A DNA stretch of 64,000 bases from an uncultured Ignavibacteria bacterium (GTDB lineage: Bacteria; Bacteroidota; Ignavibacteria; Kapaibacteriales; UBA2268): NCBI GenBank assembly GCA_903862655.1, contig CAIOZA010000024.1:11716-75715 (forward strand). Direction: 5' to 3'. Each line of letters opens with the position of its first letter. The stretch's first letter is position 1. The notes beneath the pieces are model-generated. The model made no database searches. It saw nothing but the letters and a program-made list of their open reading frames with translations, and was not told the origin of the DNA. Positions 20,090 to 21,821 of the stretch are shown here, in pieces. A program made the translations under genes and the position numbers.

Positions 20090-21295
20090 TTATCCAAGTT
20101 TTGGTAATGTAAACGAGAAAATGCTTCCTTTTCCTTTTTCACTTTCGACCCAAATTTTGCCTCCCATTTTCTCAACGAATTCTTTGCAGAGGATTAGCCC
20201 CAATCCTGTGCCTTTCTCTCCGGAAGTACCTGCATTAGTTACGGTTACATCAATGCGGAACAGTTTGTTAAGAATGTCTGCGATCATGCCGACGCCTGTA
20301 TCGGTTACAGAAATGATAATAAAATTGGGAGAATCAATTTTTTCGGAGCTGGATAGAGTAATTGATCCATTTTCAGGAGTGAATTTTATAGAATTGGAAG
20401 TTAAGTTTCGTATTACTGTGGTAAGCAGGTTAGAATCAAAGAAAGCCAGAGTCTTAGGTTTGATGTTATTGATCAGAGAAATTTTCTTGGCGTCAGCCTG
20501 AAGTTTAAGTACATCAATGGCATAAGAAGAAACCAAATGAACATCATTAATAGAAGGAATAAGTTCTATTAGTCCACGCTGAGCCCGCGACCAAATCAGT
20601 AGATTTTCGAGCAGTGAAAATATATTCTTTGCAGAATCGCTTATTAATGAGAGATATTCTACAGTTTCCTCGGGAGAGAAAGAATCGAAATTATTAATCA
20701 TCAAATCCAGTAAAGTTTTAAGAGAACCTAGGGGTCCGCGAAGATCATGCGAGATAATCGAAAAGAATTTATCTTTGGTTGCGTTCAGATCAACCAGCTC
20801 GTTTTCGCGATTTTTTAATGTTTGAATTGTCTCATCGAGCTGATGGATCATAATATTGAATGCACCTGAGAAATCTCCCATGAATTCAACTTTTTGGGTA
20901 AAATCACCAGCAGCGACCATTTGTGTCTGCCATGTCAAATGTCTTAGATTGGATTGTAGCATTTTCAAGCATCCACCCACATAGCCTTTTAGCTTGAAGT
21001 CATAAGATAAGTCACCCGATGAGAATGAGGATACAGCAGTGCGAATAATTGTCAGACTGTTGAATAATTCTAACAACTTCTGATCATTTTCCGGATCAGG
21101 TATAGTTAATTTGGGAACTGAATCAAAAATATAAGAGTAAACAGAATCAGTAACCGCTGACTCAGTTAGATTAATATTTGTGTTGTGCAGTTCTTCCAGA
21201 ACAGATTTTAATTTCGATTCGATTATGGACTGTTCAGAATCATTCTTAATCGCATCATCGATGAATGATTTTAGATTCTCAAGGATGTGCTTCAT
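20090..21295 (-). CDS. soluble sensor histidine kinase (paralog of the kinase at 21992..23089)
   Basis: No TM helices. HisKA FFSIISHDLRGPLGSL. HATPase_c (LTSNSIKFT, TDTGVGM, GTGLGLILCKEFVEKMGGKIWVESEKGKGSIF). Starts 4 nt after the V4R gene stop. Confidence 0.8.
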   Translation of the reverse strand: MKHILENLKSFIDDAIKNDSEQSIIESKLKSVLEELHNTNINLTESAVTDSVYSYIFDSVPKLTIPDPENDQKLLELFNSLTIIRTAVSSFSSGDLSYDFKLKGYVGGCLKMLQSNLRHLTWQTQMVAAGDFTQKVEFMGDFSGAFNIMIHQLDETIQTLKNRENELVDLNATKDKFFSIISHDLRGPLGSLKTLLDLMINNFDSFSPEETVEYLSLISDSAKNIFSLLENLLIWSRAQRGLIELIPSINDVHLVSSYAIDVLKLQADAKKISLINNIKPKTLAFFDSNLLTTVIRNLTSNSIKFTPENGSITLSSSEKIDSPNFIIISVTDTGVGMIADILNKLFRIDVTVTNAGTSGEKGTGLGLILCKEFVEKMGGKIWVESEKGKGSIFSFTLPKLG

Positions 21296-21299
21296 TTTA

Positions 21300-21821
21300 T
21301 TATCCTACTACATTTGCAACGAATCTGCATGTTCTGTCACCGGTACACCAGCAATCCACTTCTTTAACTATAAATTTTTTGCCGGTAAAACTCTCCAATA
21401 ATCCTGCATACATGCCTTCGTCGTATGTGCAAACTTCATAATCAAGCTCAGGTAGTCCGGAACAATCGAGATCCTCCGATGCTGTAAGAATGATTTCACC
21501 GTTTTGAAGATCAATCTTTTCCATTCTCAAAATGGCAATACCCAGCTCCTTCAATTTTGCCTGAAGCTGTTTTACAAACTCATTCATGTCGGTGATGCCA
21601 ACAAAAAACTGTTTATAAAGTTCTTTTCCGCCAAGATAGCCGGACTCGTAGAAAATTTCGTCAGTCATTTCAGTACCGAACTTTTTCTCAATAATATCCC
21701 GGAATGTGAACTGCATTAATCTGTAAATCTCAAGACTAGTAGTGTCTCCTAAATTAGGTCTTCCGAGCTGGATATCTCCAATGAGATCCCATGAAAATTC
21801 ATATTTTCTGTTAATTCCCAT
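21300..21821 (-). CDS. V4R (4-vinyl reductase-like) small-molecule-binding domain protein
   Basis: 173 aa. C-terminal VCTYDEGMYAGLLESFTGKKFIVKEVDCWCTGDRTCRF matches the V4R signature (C..GYlaGllsa.lGk...v.Et.C.a.Gd..C.F). Upstream Gly/Leu pattern also V4R-like. Confidence 0.6.
   Translation of the reverse strand: MGINRKYEFSWDLIGDIQLGRPNLGDTTSLEIYRLMQFTFRDIIEKKFGTEMTDEIFYESGYLGGKELYKQFFVGITDMNEFVKQLQAKLKELGIAILRMEKIDLQNGEIILTASEDLDCSGLPELDYEVCTYDEGMYAGLLESFTGKKFIVKEVDCWCTGDRTCRFVANVVG

What the first reader, a model, noticed from the sequence alone, without database searches (positions are those of the whole stretch)
20090..21821. V4R ligand-binding protein translationally coupled to a soluble histidine kinase
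The 173-aa protein at 21300..21821 has the V4R C-terminal Cys signature (VCTYDEGMYAGLLESF…EVDCWCTGDRTCRF). Its stop lies 4 nt before the start of a TM-less histidine kinase that has no recognisable sensor domain of its own. V4R domains bind small hydrophobic ligands, e.g. in XylR/DmpR-type activators and BchJ. A stand-alone V4R protein acting as the sensory partner of a soluble kinase would be an uncharacterised signalling arrangement. A cytidylate-kinase-like P-loop protein follows 110 bp downstream on the same strand.
Basis: partly seen in the sequence, partly recalled or inferred. Interest (0 to 1): 0.55.

Follow-up and report, generated by a model that had tools for sequence, protein, structure and literature searches.

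The report
V4R sensor paired with di-HAMP kinase
A small cysteine-rich V4R protein and the soluble histidine kinase just downstream of it belong to a two-gene signalling cassette that is conserved across many, mostly anaerobic, bacterial phyla, was not described in any paper I could search, and has an unknown signal.

Summary
On the minus strand, a 173-aa V4R protein (21821..21300; Pfam V4R 49 bits against a cutoff of 31) stops 4 nt before a TM-less 401-aa HisKA/HATPase_c kinase (21295..20090).

The kinase N-terminus is not empty. Residues ~72-160 form a tandem (di-)HAMP-like module, and this module, not the kinase core, is what co-occurs with V4R.

- In 80 loci from species-representative genomes, 75 carry a homolog of this module immediately downstream of V4R on the same strand. 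Two of the other five are cut at a contig end.
- The gap is usually 10 nt or less.
- The module is fused to different outputs: GGDEF 56, His-kinase 15 (this window included), PP2C 3, HD-GYP 2, and one class III cyclase seen elsewhere.
- No third gene is conserved. The cytidylate-kinase-like neighbour is lineage-specific.

The V4R protein is 65-70% identical across phyla, has five invariant Cys (three plus a Glu align with the DmpR/MopR zinc site), and has no His. Its best-scoring named family is the V4R domain of the redox regulator MsvR.

I read it as a trans-acting input for a di-HAMP transducer, analogous to H-NOX with its kinases and cyclases. The signal is unknown; thiol/metal redox is my leading guess.

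The parts
21300..21821 (-). Gene for the stand-alone V4R protein (173 aa; the stop codon is included in the coordinates)
21315..21485 (-). Region matched by Pfam V4R (aa 113-169). It holds the EDLDCSG loop (C120) and the C131 / E154 / C157 / C165 set that aligns with the zinc site of DmpR and MopR, plus C159.
   Evidence: The 26/8 Cys spacing equals that of DmpR C151/C177/C185 (PMC7264223) and MsvR C206/C232/C240 (PMC3729527).
21296..21299 (-). 4-nt spacer (TAAA) between the V4R stop codon and the kinase ATG
   Evidence: Sequence read directly. Equivalent gaps are 10 nt or less in 27 of 53 related loci where the start codon is unambiguous.
20090..21295 (-). Gene for the soluble histidine kinase (401 aa)
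   Evidence: No TM segment; His183 and the N, G1, F and G2 boxes are present.
20816..21082 (-). Di-HAMP-like module of the kinase (aa ~72-160): helix, GDLS connector, long helix, GDFT connector, then a helix that runs into the DHp domain. This is the part that co-occurs with V4R.
   Evidence: Homologs lie directly downstream of V4R in 75 of 80 loci. Consensus. PDB profile hit to a poly-HAMP kinase, 9trk_A, E 8e-6. Internal repeat by hhalign, probability 88.8%. AF2 model pLDDT 91-97 here, with helices 72-92, 105-128 and 141-205. Pfam HAMP is sub-threshold in this protein but hits 47 of 77 partners.
20573..20776 (-). HisKA (DHp) domain, aa 174-241, phospho-acceptor His183
   Evidence: Pfam HisKA 40.6 bits; motif SHDLRGPL at aa 182.
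20099..20437 (-). HATPase_c catalytic domain, aa 287-399
   Evidence: Pfam 88.9 bits; N box at 297, G1 at 332, G2 at 362.

Best explanation
The two genes encode a split cytoplasmic sensor kinase. The V4R protein is the trans-acting input. It probably forms a dimer, as the DmpR and PoxR sensor domains do, and carries a Cys3-Glu metal site plus one or two extra conserved Cys. I propose that it docks on the tandem HAMP (di-HAMP) module at the N-terminus of the soluble kinase. HAMP helix rearrangement would then pass down the continuous helix into the DHp domain and set autophosphorylation of His183.

The same V4R/di-HAMP unit is reused in other bacteria with diguanylate cyclase, PP2C phosphatase, HD-GYP and class III cyclase outputs, so the window holds the kinase-output version of a general cassette.

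What is shown: gene order, tight spacing, co-conservation, domain identities, fold, and faster divergence of outputs than of the V4R/module pair. What is inferred: physical contact, direction of signal flow, and the signal.

My best guess for the signal is a thiol- or metal-based redox or oxidant cue, as for the V4R domain of MsvR (about 0.4). A small-molecule or gas ligand comes next (about 0.3), then a relay role (about 0.2). The cognate response regulator is unknown.
For: 1. V4R identity and fold.
2. Pairing: a homolog of kinase aa ~60-167 lies immediately downstream of V4R on the same strand in 75 of 80 loci from species-representative genomes. These loci include Desulfobacterota, Geobacterales, Firmicutes, Spirochaetota, Chloroflexota and Verrucomicrobiota, among others. 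Two of the five exceptions are truncated contigs.
3. Spacing: 27 of 53 unambiguous gaps are 10 nt or less and 45 of 53 are 40 nt or less.
4. Variable outputs on a constant module: GGDEF 56, HisKA/HATPase 15 (this window included), SpoIIE 3, HD_5 2, plus Guanylate_cyc in L085.
5. Only these two genes are conserved in the neighbourhood.
6. Close relatives keep V4R followed by the kinase.
7. Distance matrices: V4R against module r = 0.73; partial r controlling for the GGDEF domain of the same protein 0.55 (permutation p = 0.001); V4R against GGDEF controlling for the module only 0.18.
8. Di-HAMP nature of the module.
9. Redox lead: the only NCBIfam hit is MsvR (E 6.6e-15, V4R part). There are five invariant Cys and no His. 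C120, C131, E154, C157 and C165 are kept in about 90% of 113 distant representatives. MsvR V4R cysteines with the same spacing control redox-dependent DNA binding (PMC3729527). Most of the named hosts belong to groups I know as anaerobes.
Against: - No direct evidence of binding.
- One module-GGDEF protein (L082) has no V4R gene next to it, and two V4R loci have no module gene next to them (L059, L071), so the link is strong but not obligatory.
- In DmpR, MopR and PoxR the homologous Cys3-Glu site binds structural zinc beside a phenol pocket (PMC7264223), so conserved Cys do not by themselves mean redox sensing.
- The MsvR match is far below that family's cutoff (55 against 220 bits).
- V4R domains of this clade also occur at the C-terminus of PAS-PAS, SBP-PAS and GGDEF-EAL proteins, which fits a relay or regulatory role as well as a primary-sensor role.
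- The mirror-tree correlation is confounded by shared ancestry and by cassette transfer.
Confidence: 0.65

Rival explanations
1. The V4R protein is a receptor for a small hydrophobic or aromatic molecule, as in XylR, DmpR and MopR, and reports its presence to the kinase.
Against: The sequence relation to DmpR and MopR is marginal (E 0.04 and 0.46). The protein has no His, whereas phenol sensors use His100 with Trp128 to place the hydroxyl (PMC7264223). No aromatic-catabolic genes were among the window neighbours that I annotated or among the conserved neighbours in 80 loci. Identity of 65-70% across phyla argues for one universal cue rather than varied xenobiotics.
Confidence: 0.2
2. The V4R protein is not the primary sensor. 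It is a relay or docking subunit: V4R dimers act as a plug that connects other sensors (PAS, PYP, SBP or REC proteins ending in a V4R-like domain, or the neighbouring PAS kinase) to di-HAMP enzymes, possibly by V4R-V4R heterodimerisation.
For: - Same-clade V4R domains sit at the extreme C-terminus of proteins that have sensor domains but no output, such as PAS-PAS-V4R and SBP-PAS-PAS-V4R.
- In L090/L091 the operon reads PAS-V4R, then stand-alone V4R, then HAMP-SpoIIE.
- In L087 a PAS-PAS-V4R gene is followed 30 nt later by a sensor-less hybrid kinase.
- PYP-V4R proteins were noted to lack a relay domain (PMC12826048).
- Archaeal response regulators carry a V4R/HNOB-like output domain, MetOD1 (PMC5847659).
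- DmpR sensor domains form intertwined dimers (PMC7264223).
Against: Most loci have only the stand-alone V4R and the di-HAMP gene, with no conserved third partner. The kinase after PAS-PAS-V4R in L087 lacks the di-HAMP module. This reading rests on only a few examples.
Confidence: 0.2
3. The adjacency is only operonic. The V4R protein has an unrelated role, for example as an enzyme like BchJ, an ATC-hydrolase-like protein or a metallochaperone, and the kinase is regulated by other means.
For: No biochemical link has been shown. V4R-like folds include proteins with non-signalling roles, such as BcsD, YslB and TRAPP Bet3.
Against: The partner's output domain changes while the V4R-adjacent module stays constant. 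All partner outputs are signalling enzymes. Same-clade V4R domains are fused to GGDEF-EAL and PAS proteins. The only NCBIfam family matched was MsvR, so no BchJ or other enzyme family was hit.
Confidence: 0.07

Closest known systems
H-NOX proteins with their co-cistronic histidine kinases or diguanylate cyclases (for example HnoK); NosP/NahK is a second example of the same kind
   Different: No Pfam HNOB hit and no His at all, so there can be no His-ligated heme. The partner is recognised by a dedicated di-HAMP module, which I do not know to be a feature of H-NOX partners. The signal is unknown.
MsvR, the methanogen-specific V4R-domain redox regulator
   Same: It is the best-scoring named family for the V4R protein (NCBIfam E 6.6e-15 over aa 28-168). 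It has the same three Cys with 26/8 spacing, which in MsvR govern redox-dependent activity (PMC3729527). The hosts are anaerobes.
   Different: MsvR is a one-component HTH-V4R repressor of archaea. Here V4R stands alone with no DNA-binding domain and scores far below the family cutoff (55 against 220 bits). The output is a separate kinase or cyclase.
XylR/DmpR/MopR/PoxR aromatic-sensing domains of sigma-54 activators
   Same: The fold is the same over the whole protein, and the Cys3-Glu zinc ligands align (PMC7264223).
   Different: There is no AAA+ or HTH domain. The phenol-positioning His is absent. Sequence similarity is marginal. Signalling is in trans rather than within one chain.
Poly-HAMP arrays (Aer2; fungal group III hybrid kinases)
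   Same: The kinase N-terminus has two consecutive HAMP-like units that share a continuous helix. The best PDB profile hit is a poly-HAMP kinase construct, 9trk_A, and there is a weak Aer2 hit. An internal repeat is detectable, and the predicted topology is helix, connector, helix, connector, helix.
   Different: There are only two units with short connectors. Pfam HAMP is sub-threshold in this protein. The module is soluble and is specifically linked to an upstream V4R gene.
MetOD1, the V4R/HNOB-like output domain of archaeal response regulators
   Same: A V4R-like domain with three conserved Cys is used inside signalling proteins in a position other than a classical N-terminal input (PMC5847659).
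   Different: MetOD1 is fused to a receiver domain in methanogens. No sequence comparison was made here.

Membership tests
V4R domain (Pfam PF02830) | HMM score at or above the gathering threshold | tested here: met
   49.4 bits against a cutoff of 31, E 4.9e-13, aa 113-169.
V4R domain (Pfam PF02830) | Conserved Cys triad (C-x25-C-x7-C) with a Glu three residues before the second Cys (the zinc ligands in DmpR and MopR) | tested here: met
   C131, E154, C157 and C165 align with the DmpR and MopR ligands (PMC7264223). They are invariant in 25 orthologs and kept in about 90% of 113 distant representatives.
V4R domain (Pfam PF02830) | Alpha/beta fold of the PoxR, DmpR and MJ1460 type | tested here: met
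XylR/DmpR-type aromatic-responsive activators | Sensor domain fused to a sigma-54 AAA+ domain and an HTH domain | tested here: not met
   The protein is 173 aa and stands alone; V4R is the only Pfam family above threshold.
XylR/DmpR-type aromatic-responsive activators | Phenol-positioning His (DmpR His100) in the pocket | tested here: not met
   The protein contains no histidine; the residue's role is taken from PMC7264223.
MsvR | NCBIfam NF053755 score at or above its cutoff, and an N-terminal HTH domain | tested here: not met
   55.4 bits against a cutoff of 220. Only profile positions 103-235, the V4R part, are matched.
BchJ (bacteriochlorophyll 4-vinyl reductase) | Match to a BchJ family model | tested here: not met
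   The NCBIfam scan at E <= 1e-5 returned only MsvR. Whether that library contains a BchJ model rests on my own knowledge.
H-NOX / H-NOX-associated kinase systems | HNOB domain with a proximal His heme ligand | tested here: not met
H-NOX / H-NOX-associated kinase systems | Stand-alone sensor gene adjacent to a sensor-less kinase or c-di-GMP enzyme | tested here: met
   This is a resemblance in how the system works, not family membership.
HAMP / poly-HAMP | Pfam HAMP score at or above the gathering threshold | tested here: not met
   Window kinase: 18.8 bits against 25. Homologous modules in 47 of 77 partners do hit HAMP at E < 0.001.
HAMP / poly-HAMP | Helix-connector-helix units in tandem, with AS2 of one unit continuing as AS1 of the next | tested here: met
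   AF2 helices 72-92, 105-128 and 141-205 with loops 93-104 and 129-140, pLDDT 91-97. Internal repeat by hhalign, probability 88.8%, E 2.5e-6. Poly-HAMP PDB hit E 8e-6.
HAMP / poly-HAMP | Dimeric parallel four-helix bundle | not testable with these tools
   Only monomer prediction was possible. Foldseek on the monomer model found only DHp matches.
HisKA-class histidine kinase | H box with phospho-acceptor His, plus N, G1, F and G2 boxes | tested here: met
   HisKA 40.6 bits and HATPase_c 88.9 bits; His183 and motifs at 297, 332, 346 and 362.
HisKA-class histidine kinase | Autophosphorylation and transfer to a cognate response regulator | not testable with these tools
   None of the window ORFs I annotated (between about 7.7 and 31.5 kb) is a stand-alone response regulator.

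The most novel reading that the evidence does not exclude
The V4R domain of this clade and the di-HAMP module form a general plug-and-socket interface for trans signalling. V4R dimers, either stand-alone or at the C-terminus of PAS, PYP, SBP or REC proteins, dock on di-HAMP sockets of diguanylate cyclases, kinases, PP2C phosphatases and nucleotide cyclases. The conserved Cys/metal centre gates the contact according to cellular redox state. This would give a function to many sensor-only proteins that lack an output domain, such as PYP-V4R, PAS-PAS-V4R and archaeal REC-MetOD1. It would also define a redox or gas input to c-di-GMP and two-component signalling that is widespread in groups I know as anaerobes, comparable in scope to H-NOX.
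Probability: 0.2. Interest if true: 0.78.

Novelty: new variant of a known kind. Interest (0 to 1): 0.6.

Why it matters
Most cytoplasmic inputs to c-di-GMP and two-component signalling in anaerobes are unknown. This cassette appears in at least 580 species-representative genomes and about 4950 protein clusters. The V4R protein is unusually conserved and its output modules are swappable, which are the marks of a general sensor system like H-NOX or NosP. I found no paper describing it, and it did not come up in my V4R-plus-diguanylate-cyclase search, which covers a 2022 census of c-di-GMP sensory inputs.

Identifying its signal would annotate thousands of 'HAMP domain-containing' cyclases and kinases. 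It would also give a testable function to V4R outside aromatic sensing, and might explain sensor-only V4R fusion proteins. For this window specifically, it assigns an input partner to an otherwise sensor-less kinase.

Tried and rejected
- Modelling the V4R plus kinase-N-terminus complex as a linker fusion with a paired alignment of 30 loci.
- Using the big word-indexed protein search for a census of the N-terminal module. It returned only 8, and then 69, mostly short fragments. The output census therefore rests on the 80 genome loci.
- An apparent natural V4R-HAMP-GGDEF fusion (P0232). On reading the sequence it is a frameshift artefact that joins the two adjacent genes. L085 is likewise a frameshifted V4R upstream of a module-cyclase gene.
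- Sigma-70 promoter and terminator scans around the operon. Counts equal those in shuffled sequence, so they are uninformative. My own knowledge is that FCB-group bacteria often use a different promoter consensus.
- Foldseek of the monomeric kinase N-terminus model. It found only DHp matches; the Aer2 and Af1503 HAMP hits were not significant.
- OrpR, a Desulfovibrio Fe-S redox sensor, looked like a V4R precedent, but its sensor is a PAS domain.
- The cytidylate-kinase-like gene as a third component. Rejected: it has no homolog in the 80 loci and is present only in the closest relatives.
- I could not inspect Cys geometry in the AF2 model because the coordinates are not exposed.
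Full report
**Observation**

The minus strand of the window carries five genes in a row:
- a PAS histidine kinase, 23089..21992;
- a 173-aa ORF, 21821..21300;
- a 401-aa ORF, 21295..20090;
- a Cytidylate_kin2-family ORF, 19979..19254;
- a Tll0287-like/PAS hybrid kinase, 19114..16832.

The 173-aa protein hits Pfam V4R above threshold (49.4 bits against 31). Its TAA stop is separated from the ATG of the next gene by 4 nt. The 401-aa protein has HisKA and HATPase_c domains, His183 and all catalytic boxes, and no hydrophobic segment long enough to be a TM helix. 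Every factual element of the finding is therefore correct.

**The V4R protein**

The large protein database holds about 4950 homolog clusters. The best 120 are nearly all 170-183 aa long, and those that carry an organism name come from several phyla while staying 65-72% identical to the window protein. An alignment of 25 shows long invariant stretches: RKYxFSW...GRPNLG at the N-terminus, SEDLDCSGLPE, YDEG, and VKExDCWCTGxRTCRF.

An AlphaFold2 model (pLDDT 83) matches several structures:

A profile search of PDB sequences aligns C131, E154, C157 and C165 with the Cys-Glu-Cys-Cys set of DmpR and MopR. In DmpR that set coordinates zinc next to the phenol pocket (PMC7264223).

The protein contains no histidine and five cysteines, all invariant among orthologs. 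Among 113 more distant cluster representatives, C120, C131, E154, C157, W158 and C165 are each kept in about 90%, and C159 in about 30%.

The only NCBIfam family matched is MsvR (E 6.6e-15, V4R portion only, far below the family cutoff). MsvR is a redox-responsive regulator of methanogens. Its three V4R cysteines, C206, C232 and C240, have the same 26/8 spacing as here and control its redox-dependent DNA binding (PMC3729527).

**The kinase N-terminus**

Pfam sees only a sub-threshold HAMP hit. Residues ~60-167 nevertheless have clear homologs elsewhere. The consensus is LxxxRxFxxAxxxGDLSxxxxxKGYxxGxLKxLQAxLRHLTWQTKMIASGDFSQRVDFMGEFSxAFNxMVxxL. Four results point to a tandem, or di-, HAMP:
- 47 of 77 homologous proteins hit Pfam HAMP.
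- The best PDB profile match is a poly-HAMP kinase construct (9trk_A, E 8e-6), aligned across two consecutive repeats.
- The first half of the module aligns with the second half (hhalign probability 88.8%, E 2.5e-6).
- An AlphaFold2 model of aa 1-250 (pLDDT 86, and 91-97 in this region) shows helix 72-92, loop 93-104, helix 105-128, loop 129-140, and a helix 141-205 that runs straight into the DHp helix bearing His183.

The first ~70 residues are three less confident, poorly conserved helices. Four-helix-bundle dimerisation could not be tested.

**Co-conservation**

A scan of one genome per species found 580 stretches encoding relatives of the V4R protein. I analysed the 80 loci that were returned.

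In 75 of them a homolog of the kinase's di-HAMP module lies immediately downstream of V4R on the same strand (BLAST and a purpose-built HMM). Of the five exceptions:
- two are contigs that end just after V4R;
- one has an unrelated 337-aa ORF downstream;
- two have convergent genes.

The kinase core itself finds relatives in only 24 loci. The module-bearing proteins range from about 270 to 1009 aa, not counting a few that are cut at contig ends. Their outputs are:

| Output domain | Proteins |
|---|---|
| GGDEF | 56 |
| HisKA/HATPase_c (this window included) | 15 |
| SpoIIE-type PP2C | 3 |
| HD-GYP-type HD_5 | 2 |

Many also have intervening PAS or GAF domains. A class III cyclase version turned up in a metagenome contig.

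Where the start codon is unambiguous, 27 of 53 intergenic gaps are 10 nt or less and 45 of 53 are 40 nt or less. Clustering all ORFs in the loci found only these two conserved components. The other recurrent clusters are antisense shadow ORFs.

In the nearest relatives of the window organism the order PAS-kinase, V4R, kinase, cytidylate-kinase-like is kept (V4R 80% identical, kinase 67%). At 71% V4R identity the V4R-kinase pair is kept but the cytidylate-kinase-like gene is not.

V4R is much more conserved than its partner: mean pairwise distance is 0.29, against 0.53 for the module and 0.58 for GGDEF. V4R distances track module distances (r = 0.73; partial r 0.55 after controlling for the GGDEF domain of the same protein; p = 0.001). 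They track GGDEF distances much less once the module is controlled for (partial r 0.18). That fits V4R and the module evolving and moving as one unit while outputs are exchanged. It does not prove physical contact.

The link is not absolute. One module-GGDEF gene has no V4R gene beside it.

**Other contexts of the same V4R clade**

An exhaustive HMMER search of 1.84 billion cluster representatives found 646 relatives, 52 of them at E <= 1e-30. Among the best hits are long proteins with this V4R domain at the extreme C-terminus:
- PAS-PAS-V4R and SBP-PAS-PAS-V4R;
- SBP-GGDEF-EAL-V4R and dCache-GGDEF-EAL-V4R.

Two contexts are telling. One operon reads PAS-V4R, stand-alone V4R, HAMP-SpoIIE. One PAS-PAS-V4R gene is followed 30 nt later by a sensor-less hybrid kinase that has only a short coiled coil before its H box and no di-HAMP.

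Published surveys add two related observations. PYP-V4R proteins were noted to lack any relay domain (PMC12826048). Methanogen response regulators carry a V4R/HNOB-like output domain, MetOD1 (PMC5847659).

Together these raise the possibility that V4R can act as a docking or relay element, perhaps through V4R-V4R dimers like the intertwined DmpR sensor dimer (PMC7264223), and not only as a primary sensor.

**Mechanism proposed**

Shown:
- gene order, spacing and co-conservation;
- domain identities and predicted folds;
- exchange of output domains while the V4R/module pair stays constant.

Inferred:
- the V4R protein binds the di-HAMP module of the kinase dimer;
- its state alters HAMP packing;
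- the change travels along the continuous AS2-DHp helix to set autophosphorylation at His183.

For the signal I rank the options as follows:
- **Thiol or metal redox cue, about 0.4.** The nearest named relative is MsvR, there are four to five conserved Cys around a metal site, there is no His, and most of the named hosts are groups I know as anaerobes.
- **Small-molecule or gas ligand in the V4R cavity, about 0.3.**
- **Relay role, about 0.2.**

None of the window ORFs I annotated (between about 7.7 and 31.5 kb) is a stand-alone response regulator, so the downstream target of this kinase is unknown.

**Comparison with known systems**

In how it works, the closest analogue is H-NOX, or NosP, with its co-cistronic kinases and c-di-GMP enzymes (PMC4436077, PMC8738867). 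The fold is distantly related to H-NOX, but the protein is not an H-NOX: there is no HNOB hit and no His.
- It is a true V4R-family member.
- It is not a DmpR-type activator, because it has no AAA+ or HTH domain and no pocket His.
- It is not MsvR, because it has no HTH domain and scores below the cutoff.
- No BchJ family was matched.

Full-text searches for V4R or 4-vinyl reductase combined with histidine kinase, diguanylate cyclase, HAMP or GGDEF found nothing describing this pairing. The search library is incomplete, so prior description elsewhere cannot be excluded.

**Verdict**

This is a real feature and not a chance juxtaposition. It is the kinase-output member of a widespread V4R/di-HAMP two-gene signalling cassette that appears to be uncharacterised. 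I rate it a new variant of a known kind, namely a stand-alone cytoplasmic sensor paired with a sensor-less signalling enzyme. Interest is 0.6.

Noticed in passing
window 15085-23089 (minus strand): Four histidine-kinase genes lie almost back to back: a 480-aa kinase at 15085..16527, the hybrid kinase at 16832..19114, the V4R-linked kinase, and the PAS kinase at 21992..23089. None of the ORFs I annotated nearby is a stand-alone response regulator. The PAS kinase and the V4R-linked kinase have paralogous cores (about 44% identical).
   Followed up: partly
window 16832-19114 (-): A 760-aa hybrid kinase with one N-terminal hydrophobic segment, a Tll0287-like domain (Pfam PF11845, 71 bits), then PAS, HisKA, HATPase_c and REC domains.
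   Followed up: no
window 19254-19979 (-): The Cytidylate_kin2-family protein (99.9 bits) has no NCBIfam match. It is syntenic only in the closest relatives (62-64% identical in L093 and L094) and absent from the 80 V4R loci, so it is not part of the cassette. Its start is ambiguous: TTG at 19979, or an ATG 9 codons later.
   Followed up: yes
window 13854-15058 (-): A non-heme ferritin gene (14504..15058) and a rubrerythrin/ferritin-like gene (13854..14306) lie just downstream of the kinase cluster. This iron and oxidative-stress theme may or may not relate to a redox input.
   Followed up: no
window 23137-23527 (-): A BrnT-toxin and CopG-type antitoxin pair of overlapping small ORFs, plus a YokU-like small protein at 24640..24867.
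   Followed up: no
window 10738-13785, 23701-27468, 28552-31441: A T9SS C-terminal sorting domain protein, a FISUMP-domain protein, an Omp28 lipoprotein, a DUF6029 protein, flagellin and FliD, in DNA of 35-41% GC. These features suggest a flagellated FCB-group bacterium, possibly Ignavibacteriota-like. The organism was not identified.
   Followed up: partly
L090 4001-7713 and L091 384-4096: An operon of PAS-V4R (567 aa), stand-alone V4R (175 aa) and HAMP-SpoIIE phosphatase (479 aa). Two V4R proteins upstream of one di-HAMP enzyme hints at V4R heterodimers.
   Followed up: partly
L087 876-5513; L089 4001-7423; L092 1522-4320: Same-clade V4R domains at the extreme C-terminus of PAS-PAS, SBP-GGDEF-EAL and dCache-GGDEF-EAL proteins. 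The PAS-PAS-V4R gene is followed 30 nt later by a sensor-less hybrid kinase that lacks the di-HAMP module.
   Followed up: partly
L082 3001-3864: A di-HAMP-module GGDEF protein (HMM E 2e-37) with no V4R gene within 3 kb. This is an orphan 'socket', so the pairing is not obligatory in cis.
   Followed up: partly
P0198 and P0206: Proteins of 319 and 368 aa made of two tandem V4R domains. In P0198 the first copy has lost the Cys signature.
   Followed up: no
V4R protein aa 1-30 and 115-130 (window 21732-21821 and 21432-21479): The most strongly conserved segments, RKYxFSW...GRPNLG and SEDLDCSGLPE, are the least confidently modelled (pLDDT 54-71 and 57). That pattern is typical of surfaces that become ordered only on binding a partner or cofactor.
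   Followed up: no
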